From the UHGV virus genome UHGV-0068632: a DNA stretch of 16,884 bases; one strand, 5' to 3'. The notes under the pieces were generated by a model. It had not been told where the DNA came from. It was given only the letters and a program-made list of their open reading frames with translations, and made no database searches. Position numbers and translations under genes: made by a program. This document shows, one piece after another, positions 1,665 through 15,056 of the stretch; the stretch's first letter is position 1, and the number at the start of each line of letters is the position of its first letter. This DNA is from a virus.

Positions 1665-2324
1665 TTAATTCCAGTTGCAAGCGTTTTTTACTTTGTCGAT
1701 GTGGTTATAAAGACCATCAATGTTAAACACTGCTTTCTCAATGTCGCCAGCTTCCGGCACTACTTCAATGATAAATTGTTTTTCGTTAACCAGATTTTTA
1801 ATCATTGGGATGGCTTTTTTGTCGTTCCATAATCCAAGAGCTTTATAGTTAGTTGACCGCCCCCATTCAGTGGCTACAGCTTTGTGATCGCCGATCCGGT
1901 AGTTAATATAAGTAGCGTCCCCGGCGTCAGTTACACGGTGTGACCATGCTACGAACATTTTTGTTTTATTACCCTGGCAAGCAATTGTTAATACCGGTTT
2001 ATTATTATCCTGTGCCTTCAGTGCCGGGAAGGCATCAAGACTTCCGCTAAAATGATCTGCTTTCACAAAAAGGAACACGTTTTTTGTGTCCTGCATATCA
2101 TCTTTTCTTTCGACCACAAGCCACTGTTTACCAGCTTTTTCTTTTGCTAACTGTGCCTCATATGCGGCTTGTTTTGCTTGTTGTTCCGCAAGCCATTTAG
2201 CATTTTTCTCAGCCAATGCTTGTTGTTCTTGAGTGGTCACTATAGGCGCTTTTTCATTATCCTCATTGCAACCAACCAGACCCAATACCGCCGCAATCAT
2301 TGCCACTTTTGCTAACTGTTTCAT
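1665..2324 (-). CDS. Putative outer-membrane lipoprotein, 219 aa, accessory (moron-like) gene
   Basis: N-terminus MKQLAKVAMIAAVLGLVGC has a signal peptide and lipobox L-V-G-C; residue +2 is Asn, which by the +2 rule predicts outer-membrane sorting. A Gln/Ala/Lys-rich predicted helical linker precedes a globular C-terminal domain. Opposite strand to the tail genes. Confidence 0.8.
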   Translation of the reverse strand: MKQLAKVAMIAAVLGLVGCNEDNEKAPIVTTQEQQALAEKNAKWLAEQQAKQAAYEAQLAKEKAGKQWLVVERKDDMQDTKNVFLFVKADHFSGSLDAFPALKAQDNNKPVLTIACQGNKTKMFVAWSHRVTDAGDATYINYRIGDHKAVATEWGRSTNYKALGLWNDKKAIPMIKNLVNEKQFIIEVVPEAGDIEKAVFNIDGLYNHIDKVKNACNWN

Positions 2325-2336
2325 AACCCACCACGC

Positions 2337-2426
2337 TTAGTTTTTATTTTTAAGTGATTTTAACATTTCTTCAATGAAATCCGCATAGCGTTCATGTTCG
2401 TTGGGACGGTAGTTTACGTTTTTCAT
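2337..2426 (-). CDS. Small hypothetical ORF, 29 aa (MKNVNYRPNEHERYADFIEEMLKSLKNKN), first gene of cassette 1
   Basis: Found by hand; below the ORF track cutoff. RBS gagga lies 4 nt upstream of the ATG at 2426, and its stop is 12 nt upstream of the lipoprotein start. Short, so coding status is uncertain. Confidence 0.35.
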   Translation of the reverse strand: MKNVNYRPNEHERYADFIEEMLKSLKNKN

Positions 2427-2503
2427 TTTCTTGTCCTCTTTTGCTTCCTCCGGTTTATCCGGTCCTTTTAAATCCCTTTACTCTATCCATTTCCTTTAGC
2501 CTC

Positions 2504-2567
2504 TTTATACAAAATGTATTCGTTGAAGTGAAGCCATTTTGTATAAAATAGAGACATAGATCACATC
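2504..2567. promoter_or_regulatory. Divergent promoter/operator region carrying the shared motif pair
   Basis: Perfect 13-bp inverted repeat tttatacaaaatg (2504-2516) / cattttgtataaa (2535-2547) containing a TATAAA -10-like core in each orientation. Followed by catagatcaca (2555-2565) with a GATC site, 20 nt upstream of the tape measure ATG. Confidence 0.45.
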
Positions 2568-2584: not shown

Positions 2585-4924
2585 ATGGCTACCAGTGTAG
2601 GTACAATTTATTACGAAGTTGATGCAAAAACTGGTCAACTTCTCGTTGCACAACGACAGGCAGACCAGGCCTTTGACCGTATAGAGCGCGGCGCAAAACA
2701 GGCTGACCGCCAGGTAAACACCCTGAAAACATCCATCAAGGCACTGACCAGGGTTATCCATTTGCTAATTGCTGCCGAGGCTGTGCGCCAATTTATGGAT
2801 ATGGCGGAGCAAGCCAAAATGCTTCGCGTAAAAATCAAATTGCTTACAGGTGAAGCGGAGGCAACGGAACGGGTTTTCAACAGACTGAAAGAAATATCAA
2901 AAGAAACAGGCCAAAGCCTCAAGGATACTGGTGCCCTGTGGCAAGGTCTTGCTATATCGCTAAAAAACACATCCGCCACAGAAGGCCAGGTGCTCAACCT
3001 GGTCAGCACGCTGCAAAAACTTGGTAACTTGGGCGGCGTGTCTGCGGAACAACTATCAAACTCCATGCTTCAGTTCCGCCAGGCTATTGATGCTGGCGTG
3101 TTGCAGGCGGAAGAGTTCAACTCAATACGTGATAACACCCCAACAATCATACAGGAAATGGCCCGACAGATGGGGTTATCTATGGGGCAGTTCCGCGCCG
3201 AAATGCTGGACGGCAAGATCACGGCTGAAAGGATGCTCAACGCGATCCAGGCGGCTACGCAGGAAACAAACGAGAAGTTTGCACAGTTACCGCGCACGTC
3301 CGGTATGGCTTTTAATGAGCTTAAAGTCGAGGTGATGGGACTTGTCGAACAACTTGATGATCTTTTCGGCATATCAGATGGCGTTGTGTCAGCTATCGAC
3401 TTAATAACTGGTGGCGTTGAGGGATTAGGTAAAGGCGCAAAATTCGCCGCAACCTGTTTCAATACACTAAAAACGGCTGGCAGTGAGTTTATCGACATGT
3501 TTGATGATGTTGCTGTTAAAGCTGGTGAGGTGGCGGAAGAGATTATCAGGATGGTAACGCCAATCAAAGCGCTAATGGATGGCTACAAATGGATGAAGGA
3601 GATCATTGATAAACGCAAGAATGAGCTAAACAGCAACAACGAAAAGAAATTCGGCCCTACAGTCGGTAAGGTCATGACGTTTGCAAATGACATCAAAAAT
3701 GCGACCGCCGCTTATGATGAGTTTATGCAGAAACAGGGTGAGGCTGATGACGGCAAGATCACCGGATTCGATCAGCCAGTTGGCAAGCCGAAAAAAGGGA
3801 AAAAAGACAAGAAATCTGAAGCTGATCGGCTTGGTGATGAAGGCATAAAAGTATCCGACCAGTACAACAAAGACGCCGCAGCTATGCGCAAAGCGTTAGA
3901 GAACGGCAAGGCCATTGATGCTGCATTCGCCCAGGGTAAAATCACTCTCCTTGAGTACCGCGCCGCGCAAAAAGGGATAGGTAAGGAACTGAAGGAAGAA
4001 TTAGCGCAAATTCCGGTAGATGAATTGCGTGATAAATGGGCGCAAATAGTAAGCCCGATGGATCAGCTTAAAGGTGAGGTTGACCCTATCCAGCAGGTGC
4101 AGAATGAATGGGCCGTCCGTAAGCAAATGCTTATCGACCTGGGCGTTACTGAAGCGCAACAGAAACAGGAACTGTTAGCCTATGAGCAACAGATCCGTGA
4201 TCTGAAGTGGGAACAGTGGCAGGCACAAAGCGATACAAACGGCCTTATCGGTGATTGCGTTAATGGCCTAAAAGGTGGTATGAGCAATGCACTTGTTGGC
4301 CTGTTAAATGGTACTCAATCATTGAGTGATGTTTTTGCTAACTTAGGCAGCAATATCCTCGGGAATATCGGTAACAGGCTTTCAGACATAGCTGCAAACT
4401 GGATAGCAGATCAGATCATGATGGAAACGCAAAGCAAAGCGACTCAGGCAAGTACCACGGCGGGCGCGGTAGCGGCGCAAGGCCAGATTGCTGCGGCGGC
4501 GGCCCCGGCGGCGGCGGCAACAGCGGCGTCAACTGGCGGCGCATGGGCGGCGGCTGGTTCTGCGGCACTCACTGCGATCATGTCGCTGGCTACGTCAATT
4601 TTCGGCGGCGGTCGCTTTAATGGTGGTAGCGTTATTGGTGGCAATATGTACCGCGTAGGGGAACACAACAGGCCGGAGCTATTCCAGACATCTAACGGAA
4701 ATCAATATATGATCCCAGGCGAGAATGGCAGGGTTATTCCTGGGCGTGATATTGGCGGTGGCGGCGGCATTAGTATGCCTGTCAATATCAACATTCAGAC
4801 CACAAACGGATTTAGCGACGAAGACAGTCGCAGACTTGAGCAAACAATGGAACGTGTAGCAATGAAGATGATAACAAGGGAATCACAAAGACCTGGAGGA
4901 ATATTGCAACCGCGCCGCAAATAA
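2585..4924 (+). CDS. Tail tape measure protein, 779 aa
   Basis: Large ORF in the expected position, with RBS gagg 8 nt upstream. Has the mostly helical N-terminal region and the Ala/Gly-rich hydrophobic segment (QASTTAGAVAAQGQIAAAAAPAAAATAAS...) typical of tape measure proteins. Followed by gpM/L/K/I/J homologues. Confidence 0.9.
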   Translation: MATSVGTIYYEVDAKTGQLLVAQRQADQAFDRIERGAKQADRQVNTLKTSIKALTRVIHLLIAAEAVRQFMDMAEQAKMLRVKIKLLTGEAEATERVFNRLKEISKETGQSLKDTGALWQGLAISLKNTSATEGQVLNLVSTLQKLGNLGGVSAEQLSNSMLQFRQAIDAGVLQAEEFNSIRDNTPTIIQEMARQMGLSMGQFRAEMLDGKITAERMLNAIQAATQETNEKFAQLPRTSGMAFNELKVEVMGLVEQLDDLFGISDGVVSAIDLITGGVEGLGKGAKFAATCFNTLKTAGSEFIDMFDDVAVKAGEVAEEIIRMVTPIKALMDGYKWMKEIIDKRKNELNSNNEKKFGPTVGKVMTFANDIKNATAAYDEFMQKQGEADDGKITGFDQPVGKPKKGKKDKKSEADRLGDEGIKVSDQYNKDAAAMRKALENGKAIDAAFAQGKITLLEYRAAQKGIGKELKEELAQIPVDELRDKWAQIVSPMDQLKGEVDPIQQVQNEWAVRKQMLIDLGVTEAQQKQELLAYEQQIRDLKWEQWQAQSDTNGLIGDCVNGLKGGMSNALVGLLNGTQSLSDVFANLGSNILGNIGNRLSDIAANWIADQIMMETQSKATQASTTAGAVAAQGQIAAAAAPAAAATAASTGGAWAAAGSAALTAIMSLATSIFGGGRFNGGSVIGGNMYRVGEHNRPELFQTSNGNQYMIPGENGRVIPGRDIGGGGGISMPVNINIQTTNGFSDEDSRRLEQTMERVAMKMITRESQRPGGILQPRRK

Positions 4925-4927
4925 ACG

Positions 4928-4958
4928 AAACCCCGGTACAATGCCGGGGTTATCTTTT
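4928..4958. terminator. Bidirectional hairpin terminator
   Basis: CCCCGG-tacaatg-CCGGGG at 4931-4949 followed by TTATCTTTT. Lies between the tape measure stop (4924) and the stop of the minus-strand ORF at 4957. Confidence 0.6.
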
Positions 4959-5133
4959 AGTTATTCTCAAAACTTGTATATCCTCTTTCAATTTTCCCGC
5001 CTCTTACACTTCTTGCAAATACTGCATCATTATGTTTGAAAAATGGTTCAGTATATGTGTCTCCTTTACTATCCATCCATTTCACGATCCAGGCTATACG
5101 TTTTACATTGCTTTTATTTGCCTGGTTTTTCAT
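4957..5133 (-). CDS. Small hypothetical protein, 58 aa (MKNQANKSNVKRIAWIVKWMDSKGDTYTEPFFKHNDAVFARSVRGGKIERGYTSFENN)
   Basis: Found by hand; one codon under the track cutoff. Strong RBS ggagg about 9 nt upstream of the ATG at 5133. The overlapping + strand track ORFs 5032-5289 and 5043-5228 lack an RBS and look like low-complexity antisense artefacts. Confidence 0.5.
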   Translation of the reverse strand: MKNQANKSNVKRIAWIVKWMDSKGDTYTEPFFKHNDAVFARSVRGGKIERGYTSFENN

Positions 5134-5151
5134 TTTATTTTCCTCCGCAAA

Positions 5152-5251: not shown

Positions 5252-5506
5252 TCACTTATGGCAACCGCGAACGCCAGACAATTCATTGAATTTATGGTGT
5301 TCAACAATCACCCACTCTTTCAGATCCTGGCTATAGACTCGCCAGTCTAAATTGGCGCGGAAGGCGTAGCCGTAACCGTCTTTCAATTTTTTGGGTGACG
5401 CATTCTTGTTTAAAAACGCGTTCAAAAGTTCCTTTGCTTTTTTGACTACATGTCCCGGCGCGTTTTTCTGTGCTTTCAGATTTTTGTCAATCGCTACCAG
5501 TTTCAT
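5252..5506 (-). CDS. Basic 84-aa protein, tentatively RelE/ParE-superfamily-like (candidate toxin or mRNA interferase)
   Basis: Complete ORF in the track. Net charge about +9. The segment KKLKDGYGYAFRANLDWRVYSQDLKEWVIVEHHK resembles, by eye, the beta-strand core and C-terminal His/Tyr region of RelE/YoeB/YafQ-type toxins. This is pattern recognition only, not an alignment. Confidence 0.55.
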   Translation of the reverse strand: MKLVAIDKNLKAQKNAPGHVVKKAKELLNAFLNKNASPKKLKDGYGYAFRANLDWRVYSQDLKEWVIVEHHKFNELSGVRGCHK

Positions 5507-5523
5507 AACTCACCCCATCATCC

Positions 5524-5678
5524 TTAGTTAAGTGCCTTCAGGAAGAAGTCCCGGTATTCATCTTCTTTTGCATTCATCATGAATTGACCGTATTTGAATG
5601 CGTCGTCGAAACCCTTAACGATTGCTATTTCCACTTGTTCGAATGCGTTGTTTAGCATTACCACTACATAGCGTTTCA
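5524..5678 (-). CDS. Small hypothetical protein, 51 aa (MKRYVVVMLNNAFEQVEIAIVKGFDDAFKYGQFMMNAKEDEYRDFFLKALN), possible partner of the 84-aa protein
   Basis: Strong RBS aggagg 6-7 nt upstream of the ATG at 5678. The track's longer 76-aa version starting at 5754 runs through the promoter motif and has no RBS, so the internal start is preferred. Lies 17 nt upstream of the 84-aa gene. Confidence 0.55.
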
Positions 5679-5744
5679 TTTTGGGCCTCCTTCGTTGGTA
5701 CTGCTTTTCTTCTTGCTTTCTATATACATCTTGATGCGTGATAT

Positions 5745-5830
5745 GTGAAGCCATTTTGTAAACTAGCTATAATCATTGTGATGAAGATCTCATTTTTTGC
5801 GTAGAATCGCGTAAAAGTATATACAAAATG
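5745..5830. promoter_or_regulatory. Divergent promoter/operator region carrying the shared motif pair
   Basis: gtgaagccattttgta at 5745-5760 is identical over 16 bp to 2528-2543. A perfect TATAAT lies at 5768-5773 and a GATC at 5786-5789. The motif recurs in reverse orientation as tatacaaaatg at 5820-5830. Confidence 0.4.
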
Positions 5831-5848
5831 TAAATTATAGGGGGATTT

Positions 5849-6202
5849 ATGCCTGAAGTGTTCCGATGGACACCACAAAGAAGCTACAGCGTAAACAGTG
5901 AGCCTAACGTGTCTGTCATTAAGCTGGGTGATGGGTATGAACAGCGCCAGACAAAAGGGATTAACCCTTTACTTGATAGCTACAGCCTGGTTTTTAAAGG
6001 CACAAGCGCCGGATGCGGTGACGCCGGAAACGTGGCGCTCCAAGTTGACGCATTTTTAAGGGCGCGTTGCGCGGTCGAGGCGTTTTACTGGACTCCATCA
6101 ACTGACGGGGTGCAAAGGCTTTTTGTATGCAGAAAGTGGAGCATGACGAAAGACGGCCCGGTATGCACGCTAAACGCAACTTTTGAGCAAGTTGTCAATT
6201 AA
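5849..6202 (+). CDS. Minor tail protein, lambda gpM-like, 117 aa
   Basis: Matches my recollection of lambda gpM along its length: FRW near the N-terminus, GDGYxQR, WTP, CxKWS, and the C-terminal FEQVVN. RBS ggggga 4 nt upstream. Confidence 0.9.
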   Translation: MPEVFRWTPQRSYSVNSEPNVSVIKLGDGYEQRQTKGINPLLDSYSLVFKGTSAGCGDAGNVALQVDAFLRARCAVEAFYWTPSTDGVQRLFVCRKWSMTKDGPVCTLNATFEQVVN

Positions 6203-6401: not shown

Positions 6402-6406
6402 ACACG

Positions 6407-6433
6407 ACCCCGCGCGAAGCGGGGTTATTATTA
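6407..6433. terminator. Bidirectional hairpin terminator
   Basis: ACCCCGC-gcgaa-GCGGGGT at 6407-6425 followed by TATTATTATT. The same 19-mer occurs as an exact reverse complement at 14606-14624. Confidence 0.6.
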
Positions 6434-6850: not shown

Positions 6851-7099
6851 CTATAGGTTATCACGCAGATAATTAACGCCTTTGTCAGTGACGAATGAGT
6901 GATTAACCTGGTTTTCATCCGTCATGATGATGAATGACTTTTCCTGTAGGTATTTCGCTTTTGGGTACAGCGTTAAACAGACCTGGTACAGTATCCCGCG
7001 CTCAATCAGCAAATCAATAAATTCGTGCTCATGATAACCGACGAGGCGGGCGGCTTGTTTCAACGTGTACACATAATCGCCGTGATTGCGCCGCCCCAT
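6851..7099 (-). CDS. Hypothetical protein, 82 aa, possible helix-turn-helix DNA-binding protein
   Basis: ORF in the track with RBS aaggcgg upstream. The segment YTLKQAARLVGYHEHEFIDLLIERGIL has the spacing of an HTH motif of the excisionase/AlpA-like type. Judged by eye only. Confidence 0.6.
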   Translation of the reverse strand: MGRRNHGDYVYTLKQAARLVGYHEHEFIDLLIERGILYQVCLTLYPKAKYLQEKSFIIMTDENQVNHSFVTDKGVNYLRDNL

Positions 7100-7624: not shown

Positions 7625-7628
7625 CTCA

Positions 7629-7739
7629 CACCTCCGCGCCATTTTGTTAACTGTGCTTCCGTTTGAGTAAAATATACATATTGTATAAACCGCGATCAAT
7701 CCATTTTGGTATGATTTAGCGTGACGCAGATCACAAAAT
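7629..7739. promoter_or_regulatory. Divergent promoter/operator region carrying the shared motif family
   Basis: Motif variants at 7629-7641 (ccattttgttaac), about 7669-7681 (catattgtataaa) and 7701-7715 (ccattttggtatgat, containing the extended -10-like TGGTATGAT). agatcacaaaat at 7728-7739 is identical to 15004-15015. Confidence 0.4.
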
Positions 7740-7753
7740 CAGAAGGTGAGAAA

Positions 7754-8458
7754 ATGCGCAATATACCTACAGAGATGATTATTGATTCCGTGGACGCTGG
7801 TGTGGGCGCGGTGATTGACTTGTTCGAACTGGACTTGTCGCCCCTGGGTGGCGAGGTTATCCGCTTCCATTCCGGCGCGAATGGCTATTACGGCCCGGTT
7901 ATCTGGAAGGGATTAACTTACAACAGCTACCCGATCGAGGCTACTGGCTTCGAAATGAAAAACGAGGGCGTTTATTCGCGGCCTCAAATGGTTGTAGCCA
8001 ATATCGGCGGGCTAATCACAGGGATGAATAACGACTTCAACGACCTGCGAGGAATGAAGGTTACGCGCCGCCAGGTGGAAGTAAAATACCTGGACGCCGT
8101 TAACTTCCCAAACGGCAATCCAGACGCAGATCCATCTATTGAGGCTGTATCTTTTTACGTCGTGGAGGCCATGAGCGAGGAAACAGCGGATCAGGTGCAA
8201 TATGAGCTGTCAACGCCAATTGATGCTGATAAGGCCGTTATCCCTGGGCGCACCATCCTTGCTGACGTTTGCCAGTGGCAATACAGAGGCGACGGGTGTA
8301 TGTACGCTGGCGGACCAGTAGCAAACGATAAAGACGAGCCGACAAGCGATCCTAAAGCCGACAGATGCAGCCACCGTCTAAGCGGTTGTCGTTTGCGTTT
8401 CCCGCGTCCAAATCCGTTACCGATTTCCTGTTTCCCTGGTTCCAGTAAGGTAGGTTAA
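7754..8458 (+). CDS. Minor tail protein, lambda gpL-like, about 234 aa
   Basis: Extended match to my recollection of lambda gpL: TGFE, SRPQ, GMxxDxxxL, VTRRQV, FLDAVNFPNGN, AVxPGRxxLAxxCxWxYRGDxC, CSHRLSGCRLRF. The ATG at 7754 follows gaaggtgag; the track's start at 7721 is a GTG inside the conserved leader motif. Confidence 0.9.
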   Translation: MRNIPTEMIIDSVDAGVGAVIDLFELDLSPLGGEVIRFHSGANGYYGPVIWKGLTYNSYPIEATGFEMKNEGVYSRPQMVVANIGGLITGMNNDFNDLRGMKVTRRQVEVKYLDAVNFPNGNPDADPSIEAVSFYVVEAMSEETADQVQYELSTPIDADKAVIPGRTILADVCQWQYRGDGCMYAGGPVANDKDEPTSDPKADRCSHRLSGCRLRFPRPNPLPISCFPGSSKVG

Positions 8459-9679: not shown

Positions 9680-12600
9680 ATGAGTAGCGGCGGCGGCAAA
9701 GCAAAAACACCAACTTTAATTAACGATAATCTATATCACAAACAGTTTTATCGTGTACTCGACATTATTTCAGAAGGTCCGATTTATGGTCCTGTTAATA
9801 CCAATGCGCCATTAAACAGCGTAATGCTTAATGACACCCCTGTAACTGACGCGAACGGCAATACCAGCATCCCCGGTATTAGCGTAGCGTGGCGCAATGG
9901 TACGATAGATCAATCACCGATTAACGGTTTTAACGCCATTGAATCAACCGTTATTGTTAACGCACAGGTTAAACACGATACACCAATAATCAGGACCGTT
10001 TCCGATCCTAACGTAAACCGCGTTCGCCTGAATATCGGCGTCGATTCACTTGTACAATCTGACGAGCAAAGCAATCAACATAACACATCGGTTATGATGA
10101 TGATTGACGTGAAGCCTTCGTCTTCTTCTACGTGGACGCTTGTTAAAGACGTTACTATAGGCCCAGGTAAGATCAGCGGAGAATATCTTGAAGCGCATAT
10201 TATCAATGCACCAGATGAAAAACCGTTTGATATTCGCGTTCGCCGTGTAACCGCTGATAGCACAAGCGATCTGTTGCAGAATGATACGCGATGGAGTAGC
10301 TACAGCGAAATAATCGACGATAATTTGTCTTATCCTCACACCGCTGTAGCTGGCGCGGTAATTGACCATGATCAGTACGCTGACACGCCTACCCGCACCT
10401 ATCACCTTCGCGGGCTGATTGTTGATATTCCTGATAACTACGACCCGGAAAAGCGCACTTATTCCGGTTTGTGGCTTGGCGGCTTCAAACAGGCGTACAC
10501 CAATAACCCAGCATGGATCTTCCGCTATCTGGTTAAAAACGAGCGTTTCGGCCTTGCTCGTCACGCTGGCTATATTGACGTTGACGACGGCGCATTATAT
10601 ACGCTTTCTCAATACTGCGACCAGTTGGTTGATGATGGCTACGGCGGCCTTGAGCCTCGCATGACGCTTAACGCTTACATCACAGAGCAAATGAGCGCCC
10701 GCGACTTACTGGACAATATCGCCGGGATGTTCAGGGGTATCGCGTTATGGGACGGGCAACGCCTTACCGTGATGATTGATGCACCACAAGACCCGATCGC
10801 CACCATTACAAATGCAAATGTCGTTGATGGCGCGTTTACTCGTTCAAGTATCGCCCGCGCAGAATGCTACAACGCCGTGATCGTATCATGGACTGACCCG
10901 GAAAACGGATGGGAGCAATCAAAAGAGTATGTAGCAGACGATGAACTGATCGCCCGTGATGGTTACAACGAAACCACGTTAGAGGCGTTCGGGTGCACAT
11001 CACGCGGGCAAGCATACCGCGCGGGCAAGTGGCTGATAGAAACAGCAAAACGCGAGCCGTCAAAATTCACGTTTAAAATGGCGCGTGACGCGATTCACTT
11101 TACGCCAGGGGATATTATCGAGATACTCGACAATAACCGCGCAGGCGCTCGTTTAGGCGGCCGCATCGTTGCGAACAACGGCAAAGTAATAACGGTAGAT
11201 AAGGTTGACGCCAATTATATCGCCGCTGGGGATACAATCAGCCTTCTTGATAGCGATGGCAAGTTTAAAAAGCATCAGATCACCGGGGTGAGCGGAAACA
11301 AAATCACACTGGCGGCGGCCCCGTCATGGATTCGAAACGGCACTGTTTTTGCTGTATCCACTGAATCAGCAAAACCCGTTTTGTGCCGGATCACCAGTGT
11401 AGCCGAAACAGAAAATAACAGCGTGTACACCATCGAGGCCGCACAGCACGACCCGAACAAGCAAGCAGTGGTCGATGAAGGCGCAATATTTGAAGTCAAC
11501 AATGACACGCTTAACCATTTCCGCGTGCCGAACATTGAAAATCTGAAGGTGGTAAACATTGGATCGGAAACAATTCAATGTCGCGCCACATGGGAAACGC
11601 AGACAACAACGCATCGTATGACATTTGAGATCCGCATATATAATGCAGATGGTGCGGTGGTTAAAAGCTATGAAACAACGAAATACAGTTATGATTTTTA
11701 TGGCATTGACGCTGGCGTGTATTCTTTAGGGGTTCGCGGAAGAAATGACACTGGCATGAAGGGCGCGGAAAGTATTGTGGATCTGGTTATTGGTGCGCCA
11801 GCAGCGCCAATAGGTGTTAACTGGGTACCAGGTGTATTTCAGGCTACCGTATACCCGATAAGTAAGACAACGCTAACCACTGATACAGCGTATGAATTCT
11901 ACTATGCAGGGGAAAACCAGATCACAGATCCGGCAAAAATAACCACGGCGGCACAGTTTACCGGGCGCGGGTATCAGTGGACGTTCGGCGGAATGAACAC
12001 GGGCCATACTTATTACGTTTATGTGCGTACACGTAATGCTTTTGGCGTGTCAGACTTCGTTGAAGCATCAGGTAAGCCGACAGAAAATTTTGATGAAATT
12101 AGCGATTACGTCACCAAAGACGTGATGAATTCCGAACAATTTAAAGAAATGGTGGGCGACATTAAGGATCTTGGCGATCGCACTGACATTATCGAAAGTG
12201 CAACTCAAGACCTTAAAACAGCTACTGATACCCTAAGCGGAATAACTGAAGGCTTAAGAACTGATACTGATAATTTAATTACAGAAACAGAATCAATTAA
12301 AGCTGATACTGATTCCCTTAAAAAAGACACTGAAGACCTTTACAAGAAAGTCGAAGAAAACGCCGATGAAATAGGTAAACATGAGGTAAGAATTGACTCA
12401 TTAGAGGTATCAAGCGAAAACGTAGATAATGAACTGGCACAGACAAAAGCAAGCCTACAAAACGCATCGCTTGCTCTTATTAATAATTCGCTTGCTCAAA
12501 CTAATACCAGAAGAACGCTGACAGCTCAGATCAAAAACGTGGATTATGAAACTAAGGCGCAAATAGATCGCATTGATAACGTGATTGTCAGTGAAAAAGA

Positions 12601-14599
12601 AGCAAGAGCGGAGGCAATGGAGACAATTACCGCCGAAATCGACACGATGGATAAAAACATCAAAGGTGAGATTGCGCGCGTAGATACTGCCATTGCCAAT
12701 GAGAGCCAGGCAAGGGCTGATGCCATCAGTGAAGTTAGCGCAAACATTGACGCACTTGATAGTAAAACAGATGCCAGTGTTAATCGTCTTGATCAAGCTA
12801 TCGCAGATGAGGCCAGCGCACGCGCACAGGCTATCAGCAATGTCAATGCGAGCATGACAAATCTTGATAACAAGGTTACAAGCAACGTTTCTAGACTTGA
12901 TCAGGCAATAGCTGACGAATCAAGCGCAAGAGCAGAAGCCGATGATCAGTTAATAGCAAAAAGCGAAAAACTTGATGGTGATCTCGCTATGGCAAGGGCA
13001 AGCCTACAAAACGCTTCGCTTGCTCTCATCAATAATACATTGTCTCAGACAAAGACAAGGCGCACTCTCACAGCGGAGTTCAAACGCGGACAAAGTGAAA
13101 CTAAAGCACAAATTGACCGTATTGATAATGTCATTACTGACGAAAAACAGGCAACAGCGGAAGCGTTTGAAACTATCACAGCAGAAATGAACACGATGGA
13201 CTCAAACATTAAAGGAGAAATATCACGATTAGATAAAGTGATCGCGACTGAAACGCAAGCAAGATCTGAAGCTATAAGTAGTGTTAATGCAAGCATAAAG
13301 ACGCTAGAAAGCGACACTGAAGCCAGCGTTAACCGTCTTGATCAGGCAGTTGCTGACGAGGCCAGCGCCCGCGCACAAGCTATCAGCGGAGTAAATGCAA
13401 GCATCAGCACGCTTGATAGCAAGGTTACAAGCAATGTGACCCGTATCGACAAAGCTATTGCAGATGAGACGCAGGCCCGCACAGACGCAATAAGCAACCT
13501 TAACTCATCGCTTACCAGTACGATTAATTCTAAAGTATCTGAAGTATCAACAGCACTTTCTACGCATGAAGCATCAAGCGCGGAAAAATTCAGCCAGATC
13601 TCAGCGTCTTTCGAAGCTGTAAACTCAAGCATCACGGAATGGTCGCAGACCATGACAACGGCGGACGAGGCATTATCAACCAAAATTGATCAGTTAACAG
13701 TAACCGTTAATGGGAACACAACAGCGATCGAGACGACATCGAAAGCGTTAACCGACTTCAAAGGTAATGTTGATGCGTCATGGTCAATCAAGATTGCTAC
13801 TGATAACAACGGCATGAAATACGCTACAGGTATGTCGCTTGGCCTGACTGGTAGCGGGACTAACGTTCAATCGCAGTGTATTTTCCTCGTTGACCGCTTC
13901 GTGTTAATGACCGCAGCAAACGGCACATATACAACGCCTTTCTATGTGTCTAATGGTGCAATGTATGTGAAAGAAGCGTTTATTAAAAACGCATCAATAG
14001 GTACAGCTAAAATTGCAGATGCAGCCATTACTATGGCTAAAATTGTTAATGAAATAAAATCATCAAACTATGTTGCTGGTTCTAAAGGTTGGAGGATAAC
14101 ACAAAGCGGATCATCAGAATTTAACGATGTTGTGGTAAGGGGCGAAATCCATGCTAATAGCGGTAAATTCAAAGGAACTGTAGAAGCTACATCCTTTGTT
14201 GGTGATGTCGCATCTACTAACGTTATACCGCAATCATCATTCCCTGGGACAAGTACAAGCGGATCTCGATCTGTTACGAAGACGTATAAAGATTCATCAT
14301 CAAGCTCGCTTTCGAAAACAGTTTTCGTAATGATTCCTTACCATCTTACTTATTATACTTATTCAGGATCATCAACAATAAAAGTAACAATTGATATTAA
14401 TGGCAATAGCAAAACATATAACGTAGTAAGGGCGGCATCATCGCCTCAATTCGGATTTACGGTATCACATTGCGTAACTGGGATTACTGCTCAAACAGTT
14501 ACGATAAAAATAACAGAGGAATACACCAACACCGGAACATCAGCAGAAAGAAGGCCAGGTCTTGCACTTGTTACAAGAAGCTCAGGATCATGGTCATAA
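9680..14599 (+). CDS. Tail tip / host specificity protein, lambda gpJ-like, 1639 aa
   Basis: Collinear similarity to lambda J over the N-terminal roughly 800 aa (for example SEGPIYGPV, YHLRGLIVDIPDNYDPEKRTYSG, LSQYCDQLVDDGYGGLEPRMTLNAY, FGCTSRGQAYRAGKWLIETA). Followed by FN3-like segments, a roughly 480-aa repetitive coiled-coil region and a distinct C-terminal domain. Confidence 0.95.
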   Translation: MSSGGGKAKTPTLINDNLYHKQFYRVLDIISEGPIYGPVNTNAPLNSVMLNDTPVTDANGNTSIPGISVAWRNGTIDQSPINGFNAIESTVIVNAQVKHDTPIIRTVSDPNVNRVRLNIGVDSLVQSDEQSNQHNTSVMMMIDVKPSSSSTWTLVKDVTIGPGKISGEYLEAHIINAPDEKPFDIRVRRVTADSTSDLLQNDTRWSSYSEIIDDNLSYPHTAVAGAVIDHDQYADTPTRTYHLRGLIVDIPDNYDPEKRTYSGLWLGGFKQAYTNNPAWIFRYLVKNERFGLARHAGYIDVDDGALYTLSQYCDQLVDDGYGGLEPRMTLNAYITEQMSARDLLDNIAGMFRGIALWDGQRLTVMIDAPQDPIATITNANVVDGAFTRSSIARAECYNAVIVSWTDPENGWEQSKEYVADDELIARDGYNETTLEAFGCTSRGQAYRAGKWLIETAKREPSKFTFKMARDAIHFTPGDIIEILDNNRAGARLGGRIVANNGKVITVDKVDANYIAAGDTISLLDSDGKFKKHQITGVSGNKITLAAAPSWIRNGTVFAVSTESAKPVLCRITSVAETENNSVYTIEAAQHDPNKQAVVDEGAIFEVNNDTLNHFRVPNIENLKVVNIGSETIQCRATWETQTTTHRMTFEIRIYNADGAVVKSYETTKYSYDFYGIDAGVYSLGVRGRNDTGMKGAESIVDLVIGAPAAPIGVNWVPGVFQATVYPISKTTLTTDTAYEFYYAGENQITDPAKITTAAQFTGRGYQWTFGGMNTGHTYYVYVRTRNAFGVSDFVEASGKPTENFDEISDYVTKDVMNSEQFKEMVGDIKDLGDRTDIIESATQDLKTATDTLSGITEGLRTDTDNLITETESIKADTDSLKKDTEDLYKKVEENADEIGKHEVRIDSLEVSSENVDNELAQTKASLQNASLALINNSLAQTNTRRTLTAQIKNVDYETKAQIDRIDNVIVSEKEARAEAMETITAEIDTMDKNIKGEIARVDTAIANESQARADAISEVSANIDALDSKTDASVNRLDQAIADEASARAQAISNVNASMTNLDNKVTSNVSRLDQAIADESSARAEADDQLIAKSEKLDGDLAMARASLQNASLALINNTLSQTKTRRTLTAEFKRGQSETKAQIDRIDNVITDEKQATAEAFETITAEMNTMDSNIKGEISRLDKVIATETQARSEAISSVNASIKTLESDTEASVNRLDQAVADEASARAQAISGVNASISTLDSKVTSNVTRIDKAIADETQARTDAISNLNSSLTSTINSKVSEVSTALSTHEASSAEKFSQISASFEAVNSSITEWSQTMTTADEALSTKIDQLTVTVNGNTTAIETTSKALTDFKGNVDASWSIKIATDNNGMKYATGMSLGLTGSGTNVQSQCIFLVDRFVLMTAANGTYTTPFYVSNGAMYVKEAFIKNASIGTAKIADAAITMAKIVNEIKSSNYVAGSKGWRITQSGSSEFNDVVVRGEIHANSGKFKGTVEATSFVGDVASTNVIPQSSFPGTSTSGSRSVTKTYKDSSSSSLSKTVFVMIPYHLTYYTYSGSSTIKVTIDINGNSKTYNVVRAASSPQFGFTVSHCVTGITAQTVTIKITEEYTNTGTSAERRPGLALVTRSSGSWS
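12449..13546 (+). repeat. In-frame tandem duplication (2 x 549 bp, 183 aa each) inside the gpJ-like gene
   Basis: Unit 1 begins gcaagcctacaaaacgcatcgcttgctctt at 12449 and unit 2 begins gcaagcctacaaaacgcttcgcttgctctc at 12998. The proteins ASLQNASLALINNSLAQTNTRRTLTAQ... and ASLQNASLALINNTLSQTKTRRTLTAE... are collinear. Each unit holds three shorter repeats of about 36 aa of the RLDQAIADEASARAQAIS type. Confidence 0.8.
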
Positions 14600-14606
14600 A
14601 AAATAA

Positions 14607-14632
14607 CCCCGCTTCGCGCGGGGTTTTCTTTT
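14607..14632. terminator. Bidirectional intrinsic terminator between the J-like gene and the lipoprotein gene
   Basis: CCCCGC-ttcgc-GCGGGG at 14607-14623 followed by TTTTCTTTT. Lies 8 nt after the J-like stop codon, and the minus-strand lipoprotein stop overlaps the T-tract. Confidence 0.65.
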
Positions 14633-14879
14633 AGTAGTTAGCTACACAATTCGACGGGCTACCTATGCGGCGCATGTTGTGATCGAGTTCATGACACCAT
14701 TGACCAGTATATGGCAGTTTTTCAGTGTCATATACAAGATGACCATTAGCATCATAGACGATTTCTTGTGGAATCACTCCGCTATTTGGCAGGTTATGCA
14801 ATGCAGCTTCTTTGTCAACAGCGCAACCAGTAAGAGCAACAGCCGCAGCGAATAAAACCACTTTGAACATGTTTTTCAT
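14631..14879 (-). CDS. Small outer-membrane lipoprotein, 82 aa, in the Cor/Llp position (candidate receptor-blocking superinfection exclusion protein)
   Basis: N-terminus MKNMFKVVLFAAAVALTGC has a signal peptide and lipobox L-T-G-C with Ala at +2. RBS gagga 6-7 nt upstream. Encoded convergently just downstream of the receptor-binding J-like gene, where T1/phi80-type Cor and T5 Llp genes are found. Assigned by position and type, not by sequence homology. Confidence 0.7.
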   Translation of the reverse strand: MKNMFKVVLFAAAVALTGCAVDKEAALHNLPNSGVIPQEIVYDANGHLVYDTEKLPYTGQWCHELDHNMRRIGSPSNCVANY

Positions 14880-14975
14880 TTTTTAATCCTCGTTCTTGTT
14901 AGCTCATCCGGTTCATCCGGTGGCTTAAATATCCGACAAAACCACATTTCGTATATTGATATAAATCAATAAATA

Positions 14976-15023
14976 CATTTTGTATAAGTCAAAAATGTAA
15001 CATAGATCACAAAATGGTAGAAT
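14976..15023 (+). promoter_or_regulatory. Candidate promoter and conserved leader for the tail fibre gene
   Basis: cattttgtataa at 14976-14987, catagatcacaaaat at 15001-15015 (GATC at 15005-15008), and the extended -10-like TGGTAGAAT at 15015-15023, about 34 nt upstream of the ATG at 15057. Confidence 0.45.
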
Positions 15024-15056
15024 TATTCCGTTAATTAACATAATGGAGTCATTGCG

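What the first reader, a model, noticed from the sequence alone, without database searches (positions are those of the whole stretch)
2504..2567. Shared motif family (CATTTTGTATAA ... A-GATC-ACA) in all four divergent intergenic regions
All four divergent regions (2504-2567, 5745-5830, 7629-7739, 14976-15023) carry the same elements. The first is cattttgtataa or a close variant; at 2504-2547 it forms a perfect 13-bp inverted repeat with an 18-bp spacer, and 16 bp are identical between 2528-2543 and 5745-5760. The second, 8-15 nt downstream, is a GATC-containing leader motif: catagatcaca at 2555-2565 and 15001-15011, agatcacaaaat identical at 7728-7739 and 15004-15015, and agatctca at about 5784-5791. 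The first element holds a TATAAA-like -10 core. The GATC is a Dam methylation site in the same relative place in four promoters. This suggests one regulatory logic (a shared sigma-70 promoter type, a phage regulator operator, or Dam- or SeqA-sensitive control) drives both the tail genes and the accessory cassettes.
Basis: seen in the sequence. Interest (0 to 1): 0.6.

Follow-up and report, generated by a model that had tools for sequence, protein, structure and literature searches.

The report
Shared phage promoter and CRP boxes
The four gaps between the tail genes and the backward-facing accessory genes of this mEp021-like E. coli phage carry the same compact two-way promoter module, plus a palindrome that looks like a binding site for the host sugar-sensing regulator CRP; this is an ordinary kind of control region, but it has not been described for this phage family.

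Summary
CATTTTGTATAA-like words are enriched (9 versus 2.9 expected), and 8 of the 9 lie in the four divergent regions.

The window is the tail region of an mEp021-like (mEpimmI) temperate coliphage. In the full mEp021 genome, CATTTTGT occurs 17 times and 16 of those are intergenic (12% of the genome is intergenic). The core therefore belongs to a promoter-associated module used across the whole genome. Its reverse complement ACAAAATGG sits 1 nt upstream of a -35 hexamer in four promoter-like sites. CCATTTTG abuts the -10 hexamer in others, including sites just upstream of nutL and nutR2.

The "GATC leader motif" is the right half of a CRP-type palindrome, (T/C)GTGA-N6-TCACA. In 35-43 distinct relatives the half-sites are conserved and the spacer varies. 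GATC itself is kept in only 19 of 43 sequences in region 2. Such palindromes are about 40-fold enriched in mEp021 intergenic DNA. Most lie 17 or 27 nt upstream of a -35 hexamer, which is class I geometry, for the leftward accessory-gene promoters.

Dam/SeqA control is not supported. All promoter and CRP assignments are predictions; no 5' ends or binding data exist. I rate it a new member of a known kind, of moderate interest.

The parts
2504..2516 (-). R1, left copy of the core (CATTTTGTATAAA on the minus strand). It holds the predicted -10 TATAAA (2509->2504) of the leftward promoter, with TSS near 2497.
   Evidence: TATACAAAA(T)G is invariant in 39 distinct relatives with visibly different left flanks. 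PWM promoter score 9.7, top 0.015% of the window.
2527..2532 (-). R1, predicted -35 TTCACT of the leftward promoter, with a 17-nt spacer to TATAAA.
   Evidence: It varies only to TTTACT in relatives.
2534..2549 (+). R1, right copy CCATTTTGTATAAAAT. Read rightward it is a -10-like TATAAA/TAAAAT ahead of the tape-measure gene (ATG at 2585). Read leftward, ACAAAATGG lies 1 nt upstream of the -35 TTCACT.
   Evidence: Invariant in 39 relatives.
2550..2565 (.). R1, CRP-type palindrome AGAGAcatagaTCACA (2 mismatches). It ends 17 nt from the leftward -35. Its centre at 2557.5 is about -60.5 for the leftward TSS and about +3.5 for the rightward one.
   Evidence: TCACA is 39/39 in relatives but the left half is variable. 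Spacing to the left copy is invariant, 39/39.
5721..5749 (-). R2, predicted leftward promoter TTCACA (5749->5744), 17-nt spacer, TATATA (5726->5721), TSS near 5714. It lies ahead of a 51-aa gene (ATG at 5679) and a ParE-like toxin gene.
   Evidence: score 9.6. Register match. Class I-type gap (tail p = 0.003-0.004). Conservation.
5751..5764 (+). R2, core copy CCATTTTGTAAACT. Its reverse complement lies 1 nt upstream of the leftward -35. Read rightward it holds TAAACT.
5768..5773 (+). R2, consensus TATAAT. It is invariant in 43 distinct relatives and is the predicted rightward -10 (TSS near 5780) for the minor tail gene at 5849.
   Evidence: (score 11.2, top 0.004%).
5777..5792 (.). R2, CRP-type palindrome TGTGAtgaagaTCTCA (1 mismatch). 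It lies 27 nt from the leftward -35. Its centre at 5784.5 is about -70.5 leftward and about +4.5 rightward.
   Evidence: (TGTGA 39/43, 14 different spacers, GATC 19/43).
5819..5830 (-). R2, second core copy (CATTTTGTATAT on the minus strand). It is degenerate in six of eight close relatives, so it is probably not functional.
7640..7652 (+). R3, core copy CCATTTTGTTAAC at the junction between variable left cargo and the conserved region. TTGTTA (7644-7649) is also a predicted -35 for a rightward promoter with -10 TA(A/C)AAT at 7668-7673.
   Evidence: score 10.5.
7671..7699 (-). R3, predicted leftward promoter TTGATC (7699->7694), 17-nt spacer, TATATT (7676->7671), TSS near 7664. It is the second-best sigma-70-like match in the whole window. 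The spacer holds the CATATTGTATAAA copy at 7677-7689.
   Evidence: score 12.0. Both hexamers are conserved.
7701..7715 (+). R3, CCATTTTGgTATGAT. Read rightward it is an extended -10 (TGnTATGAT) for the L-like tail gene (ATG at 7754). Read leftward, CCAAAATGG lies 1 nt upstream of the -35 TTGATC, the same register as PR of mEp021.
   Evidence: The TATGAT hexamer is degenerate in some relatives (CATGAT, TGTGAT, CGCGAT), whereas CCATTTTGG is better conserved.
7720..7735 (.). R3, CRP-type palindrome CGTGAcgcagaTCACA (1 mismatch). Its centre at 7727.5 is about -63.5 leftward (gap 20 nt, or 19 nt in relatives) and about +5.5 rightward.
   Evidence: (CGTGA 36/36, TCACA 35/36, 11 different spacers).
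14928..14969 (-). R4, candidate leftward promoter of the Lpp exclusion-lipoprotein gene (14631-14879). It has -10 GATATT (14933->14928), TSS near 14921, and a perfect FNR-type box TTGATataaATCAA (14956-14969) centred at -41.5.
   Evidence: the only match in the window, and a perfect one. Half-sites are conserved and N4 varies across unrelated left flanks. Spacing. Lpp identity.
14974..14988 (+). R4, core copy TACATTTTGTATAAG. The ACATT(T/A)TGT part is conserved, but the TATAAG part varies (TGTAAG, TGCAAG, TATGCG) in relatives, so it is probably not a -10 here.
14996..15011 (.). R4, CRP-type palindrome TGTAAcatagaTCACA (1 mismatch; TGCAA in many relatives). Its centre at 15003.5 is about -82.5 from the predicted lpp TSS, and it overlaps the spacer of the rightward promoter.
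   Evidence: TCACA 28/34.
15009..15023 (+). R4, ACAAAATGgTAGAAT. This is the reverse complement of the core fused to an extended -10 (TGnTAGAAT). It is the predicted rightward promoter of the tail-fibre gene (ATG at 15057, TSS near 15030).
   Evidence: score 10.4. TAGAAT is replaced by TAAAAT in divergent variants that have no leftward cassette.

Best explanation
The four regions are conserved, compact, two-way promoter and operator regions in the tail-gene cluster of an mEp021-like (mEpimmI) temperate coliphage. Each lies between a leftward accessory ('moron') cassette and the next rightward tail-gene segment. The cassettes encode a VasI-like protein, a ParE-like toxin pair, an ANT/KilAC fragment and the Lpp exclusion lipoprotein.

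Motif 1 (core CCATTTTGT, reverse complement ACAAAATGG) is a promoter-associated module that this phage family uses across its whole genome. It takes one of two fixed registers.
- Register A: ACAAAATGG lies 1 nt upstream of a -35 hexamer. This is the place of a proximal UP-element or alpha-CTD contact.
- Register B: CCATTTTG lies directly (or 1 nt) upstream of a TAnnnT -10 hexamer. This gives a T-tract plus TG, like an extended -10.

In the back-to-back pairs of R1-R3, the same copy can serve register A for the leftward promoter and register B for the rightward one.

Motif 2 is a CRP-type palindrome, and its GATC is part of the CRP consensus. It lies 17 nt (R1) or 27 nt (R2) upstream of the leftward -35, which is class I geometry as at lac or malT. 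In R3 it is about -63, and in R4 about -82.5, upstream of an FNR-type box at -41.5. In R1-R3 the same palindrome covers about -6 to +11 of the predicted rightward promoter.

Inferred mechanism: cAMP-CRP (with FNR at lpp) switches on the accessory genes from conserved backbone promoters, and may at the same time occlude the rightward tail-gene promoters.

What is shown: the sequences, their enrichment, their conservation pattern and their geometry. What is inferred: the transcription starts, CRP/FNR binding, and the direction and sign of regulation.
For: Identity of the window. It is 93.5% identical to phage MagusPhagus and 85-86% identical to the mEp phages. The gene order is tail genes interrupted by reverse-strand cassettes.

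Motif 1.
- It is enriched and intergenic-specific.
- It is invariant in 35-43 distinct relatives, even where the left flanks differ.
- Register A occurs in exactly four places per genome, each with a high-scoring -35/-10 pair: mEp021 PR (TTGACT-17-TATATT), R3 leftward (TTGATC-17-TATATT), R1 leftward and R2 leftward.
- Register B occurs just upstream of boxA of nutR2 (TTGTTC-16-TATACT), upstream of nutL (TTGATC-16-TAAACT) and upstream of mEp021 gene 26. The nut-site positions come from PMC11893012.
- The predicted promoters are in the top 0.02% of the window's sigma-70 PWM scores.
- Variants without a leftward cassette still keep a core-like sequence and a TAAAAT hexamer after the J terminator.

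Motif 2.
- It matches TGTGA-N6-TCACA with 1 mismatch in R2, R3 and R4.
- The half-sites are conserved while the spacers vary.
- mEp021 intergenic DNA holds 5 sites against 0.12 in 1000 dinucleotide shuffles, with a maximum of 2.
- 6 of the 7 genome-wide sites lie in regulatory gaps. The site in the nutR2 gap is a perfect palindrome in MagusPhagus.
- In 5 of 14 site-by-direction tests, a -35/-10 pair in the top 1% of the null lies at gaps of 16-18 or 26-28 nt; I estimate about 0.14 would be expected by chance.
- CRP motif centres peak at -41.5, -61.5 and -93.5.

The leftward genes are accessory. Lpp-type exclusion lipoproteins of this group were tested experimentally, and the others are identified.
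Against: - No transcript 5' ends and no binding data exist for any of these sites. Every TSS is placed 7 nt after a predicted hexamer.
- The leftward -10 hexamers of R1 (TATAAA) and R2 (TATATA/TATACA) lack the nearly invariant T at -7.
- The R1 left half-site is poor and variable (AGAGA, AGATA, AGTTA).
- The R3 palindrome is 2-3 bp off the class I phase, and its gap varies between 19 and 20 nt among relatives.
- The R4 left half is TGCAA in half of the relatives.
- The core also occurs in contexts that fit neither register. One copy directly abuts the helicase gene's Shine-Dalgarno sequence. Others are at start codons, or downstream of the N-like gene. The 'motif family' is therefore probably heterogeneous.
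- A 9-13 bp word this sharply conserved is more than sigma-70 or alpha-CTD normally require. That leaves room for a specific factor.
- AT-rich intergenic DNA readily yields promoter-like matches.
Confidence: 0.55

Rival explanations
1. The core CCATTTTGT (and perhaps the palindrome) is the operator of a dedicated phage-encoded regulator, either an activator or a repressor, rather than a generic sigma-70/alpha-CTD element plus host CRP. It would coordinate PL, PR, the nutR2-proximal promoter and the tail-region promoters as one phage-specific regulon.
For: The core is a sharply defined 9-13 bp word at 10-16 intergenic sites. It occurs in clusters of 2-3 copies per regulatory region, in both orientations. 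It is more conserved than adjacent hexamers in R3 and R4. A 16-mer that contains it is repeated at both sides of the immunity region, ACAAAATGGTATGACT and ACAAAATGGATTGACT. The phage encodes several small DNA-binding-like proteins.
Against: The core is not palindromic, and the spacing between copies is irregular (17, 25, 27, 36, 64 and 72 bp). Its position relative to -35 and -10 hexamers is fixed to the base pair, as expected for a part of the promoter itself. The early promoters PL and PR must fire before any phage protein exists. The palindrome matches host CRP in both half-site sequence and spacing. No candidate protein was identified.
Confidence: 0.2
2. The conserved blocks are mainly recombination linkers (boundary sequences). 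Short conserved sequences at the promoter side, together with the shared AACCCCG...CGGGGTT terminators at the other side, let accessory cassettes be swapped between related phages by homologous recombination. On this reading their regulatory look is secondary.
For: Similarity between relatives with different left cargo begins at or just beside a core copy: at 7640 in R3, near 2490-2504 in R1, and near the FNR-type box in R4. BLAST matches in E. coli prophages start at query positions 38, 48 or 67 of the R1 query, which are window 2477, 2487 and 2506. Five unrelated left flanks share the R4 module. Three cassette-end terminators share the same stem.
Against: This does not explain the same core at non-cassette sites (nutL, nutR2, PR, gene 26). 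It does not explain the base-pair-fixed registers with -35 and -10 hexamers. It does not explain the pattern of conserved half-sites with variable spacers, or the 40-fold enrichment of CRP-type palindromes. The linker and promoter roles are not mutually exclusive.
Confidence: 0.12
3. The GATC inside the second motif makes the four promoters sensitive to Dam methylation or SeqA binding.
For: All four window sites contain GATC. GATC is kept in 37/39 (R1), 34/36 (R3) and 27/34 (R4) relatives. Relatives encode adenine methyltransferases. One source describes CRP as methylation-sensitive, so methylation could modulate binding.
Against: GATC is kept in only 19/43 relatives in R2, and it is lost in individual relatives elsewhere while TCACA persists. 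The sites in PL and in the nutR2 gap of MagusPhagus lack GATC. Three of the four regions have a single GATC, whereas SeqA needs at least two closely spaced sites. GATC is over-represented throughout the window (94 against 56 expected), so finding one in a gap is unremarkable. The GA before TCACA is part of the CRP consensus.
Confidence: 0.06
4. The second motif is an RNA element in the 5' leader of the rightward tail-gene transcripts, such as a stabilising hairpin or a site for an RNA-binding protein.
For: It lies between the predicted rightward -10 hexamers and the Shine-Dalgarno sequences. It is palindromic, so it can form a short stem.
Against: The predicted stems are negligible: 0 to -2.9 kcal/mol, with z-scores from +0.86 to -0.97 against shuffles. 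R1 and R4 do not fold at all. No Rfam family matches the window. The same palindrome occurs upstream of promoters at nutR2, PL and gene 26, where it would not be in a leader.
Confidence: 0.03

Closest known systems
Class I CRP-dependent promoters (lac P1, centre -61.5; malT, -70.5) and divergent promoter pairs that share a CRP site
   Same: There is a 16-bp TGTGA-N6-TCACA-type palindrome with A/T-rich flanks. It ends 17 nt before a -35 hexamer in R1, in the nutR2 gap and upstream of gene 26, as at lac (lac sequence from memory), or 27 nt before it in R2. The core promoters are weak, as is usual for activator-dependent promoters. An A-tract lies between the CRP site and the -35, where alpha-CTD sits.
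   Different: Binding and activation are untested. R3 is off phase by 2-3 bp. The R1 and R4 sites have only one good half-site. The same site also overlaps the start of an oppositely oriented predicted promoter, so it could repress there.
Phage morons: accessory genes with their own promoter and terminator inside the late operon of lambdoid phages (for example lambda bor and lom, and the HK97/HK022 morons)
   Same: The cassettes lie on the reverse strand inside the tail-gene cluster. Each is bounded by a factor-independent bidirectional terminator on one side and a promoter region on the other. The cargo varies between relatives. The cargo includes an exclusion lipoprotein and a toxin-like gene.
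   Different: Here the promoter region belongs to the conserved backbone and is shared by different cargos, like a fixed expression slot. The four slots use one common module with CRP/FNR-type boxes.
UP elements and extended -10 (TGn) promoters of sigma-70
   Same: ACAAAATGG at about -45 to -37 resembles the A-rich proximal UP subsite (consensus AAAAAARNR, from memory). CCATTTTGgTATGAT and ACAAAATGgTAGAAT are exact TGnTAnnAT extended -10 elements.
   Different: In most copies the TG abuts the hexamer with no intervening base. The word is far more sharply conserved than UP elements or spacers usually are.
Dam-regulated promoters (pap, agn43, IS10 transposase, Mu mom)
   Same: A GATC lies inside a protein-binding-site-like sequence next to a promoter.
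   Different: There is one GATC per site rather than a set. The GATC is not conserved where the binding-site half is. No competing methylation-blocking arrangement is evident.
FNR plus CRP co-activated promoters such as E. coli ansB (FNR at -41.5, CRP at about -91.5; from memory)
   Same: R4 has a perfect TTGAT-N4-ATCAA box at -41.5 and a CRP-type site 41 bp further upstream of the predicted lpp start.
   Different: The upstream site is at -82.5, not -91.5. The -10 (GATATT) and the TSS are only predicted. A single FNR-type match has modest statistical weight.

Membership tests
CRP (cAMP receptor protein) binding site | A 16-bp core TGTGA-N6-TCACA with few mismatches | tested here: met
   R2, R3 and R4 have 1 mismatch and R1 has 2. 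There are 3 hits with up to 1 mismatch against 0.59 expected in the window, and 5 against 0.12 in mEp021 intergenic DNA.
CRP (cAMP receptor protein) binding site | Dimer footprint in evolution: both half-sites constrained and the central spacer free | tested here: met
   R3 has CGTGA 36/36 and TCACA 35/36 with 11 different spacers. R2 has TGTGA 39/43 and TCTCA 32/43 with 14 different spacers. R1 and R4 have only the right half well conserved.
CRP (cAMP receptor protein) binding site | Centre at an activator position (-41.5, -61.5, or about -71.5, -82.5, -92.5) relative to a transcription start | tested here: inconclusive
   Relative to predicted leftward starts the centres are -60.5 (R1), -70.5 (R2), -63.5 or -62.5 (R3) and -82.5 (R4). 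Sites with a 17-18 nt gap to a -35 also occur at nutR2, gene 26 and PL. All starts are predicted, not mapped.
CRP (cAMP receptor protein) binding site | cAMP-dependent binding by CRP, and crp/cya-dependent expression | not testable with these tools
   Needs EMSA or footprinting, and reporter assays.
Sigma-70 promoter (with extended -10 or UP-like element) | -35 and -10 hexamers 16-18 nt apart that resemble TTGACA and TATAAT | tested here: met
   Leftward: TTCACT-17-TATAAA, TTCACA-17-TATATA and TTGATC-17-TATATT. Rightward: GTGAAG-17-TATAAT, TGgTATGAT and TGgTAGAAT. Scores are in the top 0.02% of the window. Caveat: R1 and R2 leftward lack T at -7.
Sigma-70 promoter (with extended -10 or UP-like element) | A mapped transcription start 5-9 nt downstream of the -10 | not testable with these tools
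   No transcript data are available. The only genomic paper on the group does not analyse promoters.
Dam/SeqA-controlled promoter | Functionally required GATC(s), hence conserved; for SeqA, at least two GATCs close together | tested here: not met
   GATC is kept in 19/43 relatives in R2, and is lost in some relatives in R1, R3 and R4 while TCACA is kept. There is a single GATC in R1, R2 and R4.
Phage moron (autonomous accessory cassette in a late operon) | An accessory gene or genes with their own promoter and terminator, variable among related phages, inserted between conserved structural genes | tested here: met
   Cassettes lie on the reverse strand between tail genes, with bidirectional terminators at 4929-4951, 6406-6426 and 14605-14625. 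Cargo differs among relatives. Promoter activity itself is predicted only.
FNR binding site (R4 only) | TTGAT-N4-ATCAA centred near -41.5 of a promoter that lacks a -35 | tested here: inconclusive
   There is a perfect box at 14956-14969. Half-sites are kept and N4 varies across unrelated left flanks. The box is centred at -41.5 from predicted -10 GATATT. However, about 1 match with up to 1 mismatch is expected per window by chance, and the TSS is not mapped.

The most novel reading that the evidence does not exclude
The mEpimmI phages carry a family-wide regulatory code. A sharply defined core word (CCATTTTGT / ACAAAATGG) is read by a dedicated factor, or is an unusually specific alpha-CTD/sigma contact. 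Together with host CRP (and FNR) boxes, it defines a set of about 10 promoters. This set includes PL, an internal CRP-dependent promoter that feeds nutR2 (which would explain why this phage needs a third nut site), and four conserved 'expression slots' in the tail region into which different accessory cargos are swapped. A single CRP dimer would act as a direction switch, turning accessory genes on and tail-gene promoters off. That would tie superinfection exclusion, toxin expression and early transcription to the host's nutritional state.
Probability: 0.2. Interest if true: 0.6.

Novelty: new member of a known kind. Interest (0 to 1): 0.4.

Why it matters
If the predictions hold, a gut-prevalent family of temperate coliphages expresses its accessory genes under direct control of the host's global carbon (CRP) and oxygen (FNR) regulators. 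Those genes include an exclusion lipoprotein, a ParE-like toxin pair and others. They would be expressed from conserved backbone promoters, and the same logic would reach the early promoters.

This gives testable answers to two open points for the group. The first is how the reverse-strand cassettes inside the tail operon are expressed in lysogens. The second is why mEp021 uses three nut sites: nutR2 would have its own promoter.

It also corrects a tempting misreading. A GATC inside a CRP site is not evidence for Dam control. Mechanistically nothing here is a new kind of system.

Tried and rejected
- Dam/SeqA control was rejected on GATC conservation and copy number.
- An RNA leader hairpin was rejected. 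The folds are not better than shuffles, and there are no Rfam hits.
- A Q-antiterminator loading site was rejected. There is no sense-oriented core copy downstream of the Q-like gene in mEp021 or MagusPhagus.
- A CI-type operator is unlikely. The core is not palindromic, and the immunity region shows other palindromes (TTGCA-N4-TGCAA, CTTG-N4-CAAG) that look more like operators. I did not resolve this.
- I compared the core by eye with IHF, DnaA, Fis, LexA, TyrR, OmpR, sigma-54, sigma-S and T4 late-promoter consensus sequences recalled from memory. Only partial resemblances turned up (for example TTATACAAA against DnaA box TTATNCACA, and TTTACATTTTG against an OmpR half-site). I did not pursue any of them and none counts as evidence.
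- The core as an ORF start: the mini-ORFs that begin at its ATG are not conserved. A few copies elsewhere are genuine start-codon contexts.
- Literature: no paper in the library holds the motif in a phage context. The mEp021 antitermination paper (Arch Virol 2023) is not held, so I located the nut sites from PMC11893012 and from the boxA-like sequences themselves.
- The L-protein relatives at about 71% identity (L054-L090) belong to another phage group. They have a terminator and no motif upstream of the L gene, so they gave no footprinting information.
- My k-mer clustering of left flanks was too coarse to count cargo types in R1-R3.
Full report
**What the window is.** The 16.9-kb window is the tail-gene region of a temperate coliphage of the mEp021 group (mEpimmI). 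It is 93.5% identical over 81% of its length to Escherichia phage MagusPhagus. It is 85-86% identical to mEp010, mEp044, mEp554, mEp021, mEp013 and mEp515. On the plus strand lie the major tail protein, tape measure (2585-4924), an M-like minor tail protein (5849-6202), L, K and I homologues (from 7754), a J-like central fibre (9680-14599) and a side fibre (from 15057). Four reverse-strand cassettes interrupt them. Each has a bidirectional intrinsic terminator at its 3' side (4929-4951, 6406-6426, 14605-14625) and a divergent gap at its 5' side. These four gaps are the finding's four regions: R1 about 2427-2584, R2 about 5680-5848, R3 about 7625-7753 and R4 about 14880-15056. The cassettes encode accessory functions:
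- a VasI-like protein (1665-2324);
- a ParE-like toxin (5252-5506) with a small upstream gene;
- an ANT/KilAC-domain fragment (6851-7099);
- an 82-aa lipoprotein (14631-14879).

The lipoprotein is the same size and occupies the same position, between the J-like and side-fibre genes, as the gene cloned as Lpp010, and it matches a PHROG lipoprotein family. Lpp-type lipoproteins of this phage group were shown experimentally to exclude superinfecting phage (PMC11893012). That paper, the only genomic study of the group, does not analyse promoters.

**Check of the observation.** All stated coordinates and identities are correct.
- CATTTTGTATAA with up to 2 mismatches occurs 9 times against 2.9 expected, and 0 of 200 shuffles reach that. 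Eight of the 9 hits are in the four gaps.
In the complete mEp021 genome 16 of 17 CATTTTGT and 10 of 11 CATTTTGTA are intergenic, although only 12% of the genome is intergenic (p = 3e-14 and 6e-9). About 0.6 CATTTTGTA are expected from composition. MagusPhagus has 15 exact CATTTTGTA.

The motif is therefore real. It is also not confined to the tail region.

**Conservation.** I aligned the four gaps from eight sequenced phages. I then aligned them from 35-43 distinct sequences drawn from 80 IMG/VR loci found with the L protein.
- In R1, TATACAAAA(T)G and CCATTTTGTATAAAATAG are invariant. The spacing from the left copy to ATCACA is 45 nt in all 39 sequences. This holds although the left flanks are visibly different cassettes, and in some relatives the tape-measure start also differs.
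- BLAST against 5,426 complete E. coli genomes finds R1 in 26 chromosomes, once each. Several matches begin exactly where the left motif copy begins.
- In R3, similarity between relatives with different left cargo begins at the CCATTTTGTTAAC copy.
- The promoter-side sequences therefore belong to the conserved backbone, and the cargo to their left is exchangeable.
- L-protein relatives at about 71% identity belong to another phage group and have a terminator and no motif.

**The second motif is half of a CRP-type palindrome.** Extending the 'A-GATC-ACA' element leftward gives:
- AGAGAcatagaTCACA (2550-2565);
- TGTGAtgaagaTCTCA (5777-5792);
- CGTGAcgcagaTCACA (7720-7735);
- TGTAAcatagaTCACA (14996-15011).

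The CRP consensus is TGTGA-N6-TCACA. The strongest known site, AAATGTGATCTAGATCACATTT, itself contains GATC twice (PMC2504297).

With up to 1 mismatch the window has three matches against 0.59 expected, all in the divergent gaps.

Relatives show the footprint expected of a dimeric protein:

| Region | Left half | Right half | Distinct N6 spacers | GATC kept |
|---|---|---|---|---|
| R1 | variable (AGAGA, AGATA, AGTTA) | TCACA 39/39 | 10 | 37/39 |
| R2 | TGTGA 39/43 | TCTCA 32/43 | 14 | 19/43 |
| R3 | CGTGA 36/36 | TCACA 35/36 | 11 | 34/36 |
| R4 | TG(C/T)AA | TCACA 28/34 | 9 | 27/34 |

In R1, R3 and R4 the relatives that lose GATC keep TCACA.

Genome-wide, mEp021 has 7 such sites, and 6 of them lie in regulatory gaps. 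MagusPhagus has a perfect TGTGAcattcaTCACA in the nutR2 gap. Within the 6.3 kb of mEp021 intergenic DNA there are 5 sites against 0.12 in 1000 dinucleotide-preserving shuffles, with a maximum of 2. An RNA-hairpin reading is not supported (z-scores from +0.86 to -0.97), and there is no Rfam match.

**Geometry.** I scored sigma-70-like -35/-10 pairs with a simple weight matrix whose frequencies I recalled from the Harley-Reynolds compilation. This is a rough tool.

The best candidates in the gaps are in the top 0.02% of all positions in the window:
- Leftward: TTCACT-17-TATAAA (R1), TTCACA-17-TATATA (R2), TTGATC-17-TATATT (R3, second best in the window).
- Rightward: GTGAAG-17-TATAAT (R2; the TATAAT is invariant in 43 sequences), TGgTATGAT (R3), TGgTAGAAT (R4).

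The palindrome ends 17 nt before the leftward -35 in R1. By my recollection of the lac P1 sequence this is the same as at lac, where CRP is centred at -61.5. It ends 27 nt before the leftward -35 in R2, one helical turn more. The same 17-18 nt gap recurs at three other mEp021 sites:
- upstream of TTGTTC-16-TATACT in the nutR2 gap;
- upstream of TTGTGA-16-TAAACT before gene 26;
- upstream of TTGATC-16-TAAACT on the leftward side of the immunity region.

In a formal test, 5 of 14 site-by-direction combinations have a top-1% promoter score at gaps of 16-18 or 26-28 nt; I estimate about 0.14 would be expected by chance. CRP motif centres in E. coli peak at -41.5, -61.5 and -93.5 (PMC5957442).

R3 is off phase, at -63.5 or -62.5, and its gap differs among relatives.

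In R4 the palindrome is at about -82.5 from a candidate lpp start (14921). That start is defined by a -10 GATATT and a perfect FNR-type box TTGATataaATCAA centred at -41.5. The half-sites of this box are kept and its N4 varies across unrelated left flanks.

Seen from the rightward promoters, the palindromes of R1-R3 cover roughly -6 to +11. Bound protein there would be expected to occlude RNA polymerase.

**What the first motif is.** The core CCATTTTGT (reverse complement ACAAAATGG) occupies two base-pair-fixed registers.
- Register A: ACAAAATGG, one base, then a -35 hexamer. This occurs in exactly four places per genome, each with a high-scoring promoter: mEp021 PR (gtatACAAAATGG a TTGACT-17-TATATT), R3 leftward (CCAAAATGG a TTGATC-17-TATATT), R1 leftward and R2 leftward. 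The position, about -45 to -37, is that of the proximal UP-element subsite, where alpha-CTD sits between a class I activator and sigma (established knowledge, recalled from memory).
- Register B: CC(A/G)TT(T/C)TG directly before a TAnnnT hexamer, or with one extra base as a true extended -10 in R3 and R4. This occurs at the promoter-like sites next to nutL and nutR2 and before gene 26.

The nutR2 case is instructive. The predicted start lies about 10 nt upstream of the boxA-like TGCTCTTTAA. PMC11893012 places nutR2 in that gap and notes that this phage unusually needs three nut sites. An internal promoter would give that third site a purpose. This is my inference.

In R1-R3 one physical copy can serve register A leftward and register B rightward, which gives back-to-back promoters whose predicted starts are 57-58 bp apart. 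Rightward function is plausible. Three divergent relatives have no leftward cassette before the fibre gene, yet keep a core-like sequence and a TAAAAT hexamer right after the J terminator.

The family is nevertheless heterogeneous.
- In R4 the TATAAG part varies freely while ACATT(T/A)TGT is kept.
- One copy abuts the helicase gene's Shine-Dalgarno sequence.
- A few copies are start-codon contexts.
- The second R2 copy (5819-5830) is degenerate in most relatives.

**Most likely mechanism, and its limits.** I think these are conserved bidirectional promoter regions that act as fixed expression slots for swappable accessory genes. cAMP-CRP would activate the leftward promoters by the class I route, joined by FNR at lpp. 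It would possibly damp the rightward promoters that re-start tail-gene transcription after each terminator-bounded cassette.

Weak points:
- No 5' ends or binding data exist.
- The leftward -10 hexamers of R1 and R2 lack T at -7.
- R1 and R4 have only one good half-site.
- R3 is off phase.
- The core is more sharply conserved than sigma-70 or alpha-CTD contacts usually require. A dedicated factor therefore remains possible (rival, 0.2).
- A role as recombination linker for cassette exchange is compatible with the junction data, but it cannot explain the non-cassette copies or the fixed registers (rival, 0.12).
- Dam/SeqA control (0.06) and an RNA leader element (0.03) are poorly supported.

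**Comparison with known systems, and novelty.** The parts are all of known kinds: morons in a late operon, sigma-70 promoters with extended -10 or UP-like features, and class I CRP and class II FNR sites. What is new is their description in this phage family, the family-wide reuse of one core word, and the reach of CRP-type boxes into the early region (PL and the nutR2 gap). I found no paper that mentions the motif in a phage context. I rate it a new member of a known kind, with interest 0.4.

Noticed in passing
window 14956-14969: A perfect FNR-type box TTGATataaATCAA lies upstream of the Lpp exclusion-lipoprotein gene. It is centred 41.5 bp from a start predicted from -10 GATATT (14933->14928). 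The half-sites are kept and N4 varies in relatives with unrelated left flanks. This suggests anaerobic control of superinfection exclusion.
   Followed up: partly
L005 (mEp021) 20075-20180; MagusPhagus record 46555-46650: The gap that holds nutR2 contains two back-to-back core copies, a CRP-type palindrome (perfect in MagusPhagus) and TTGTTC-16-TATACT. The predicted start is about 10 nt upstream of the boxA-like TGCTCTTTAA. An internal CRP-dependent promoter could explain why this phage needs a third nut site. The terminator annotated there (TERM_4, 20087-20120) coincides with the palindrome and has no T-run, so it may be a misprediction.
   Followed up: partly
L005 (mEp021) 11173-11188 and 11928-11943: Near-identical 16-mers, ACAAAATGGTATGACT and ACAAAATGGATTGACT, flank the repressor gene. 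The second abuts the -35 of a strong PR-like promoter (TTGACT-17-TATATT). Its reverse orientation (CCATTTTG|TATACT) would point an antisense promoter at the 3' end of the repressor gene.
   Followed up: no
window 4929-4951, 6406-6426, 14605-14625: The three bidirectional terminators that close the reverse-strand cassettes share the stem AACCCCG...CGGGGTT. The loops of the second and third are reverse complements of each other (GCGCGAAGC and GCTTCGCGC). They may serve as the second conserved anchor for cassette exchange.
   Followed up: no
window 5252-5679 (minus strand): A ParE-like toxin gene (84 aa, Pfam PF24732, E = 1e-7) is preceded by a 51-aa gene. This is a possible toxin-antitoxin pair inside the tail operon, expressed from the R2 leftward promoter.
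   Followed up: no
window 1665-2324 (minus strand): A 219-aa protein matches the type VI secretion VasI family (PF11319, E = 2e-14). This is an unexpected cargo for a phage tail-region cassette. It is preceded by a 29-aa ORF (2340-2426).
   Followed up: no
whole window: GATC is over-represented (94 sites against 56 expected; no shuffle reaches 94). Relatives encode two or three DNA methyltransferases, including an N6-adenine enzyme.
   Followed up: no
window 5797-5816: A strongly conserved block, TTGCGTAGAA(T/G)CGCGTAAA, lies between the R2 palindrome and the minor tail gene. It contains a small CGCG...CGCG inverted repeat. Its function is unknown.
   Followed up: no
window 15025-15044: A palindromic GTTAATTAAC lies in the largely conserved 5' leader of the fibre gene, conserved across almost all relatives. 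It resembles an ArcA half-site pattern recalled from memory; this was not tested.
   Followed up: no
window 2418-2429, 5125-5136, 14871-14882 (minus strand): Three reverse-strand genes begin with the identical 12-mer AAAATGAAAAAC (Met-Lys-Asn...). This suggests exported or lipoprotein-type N-termini and a shared translation-start context.
   Followed up: no
loci L025, L039, L045 (about 110 nt upstream of the fibre gene ATG): In these relatives the J gene and its terminator are followed directly by TATACATAATGTATACA or TATACGCATTGTAAACT and by TTAAAAT, with no leftward cassette. The slot is empty but its promoter-like elements remain.
   Followed up: partly
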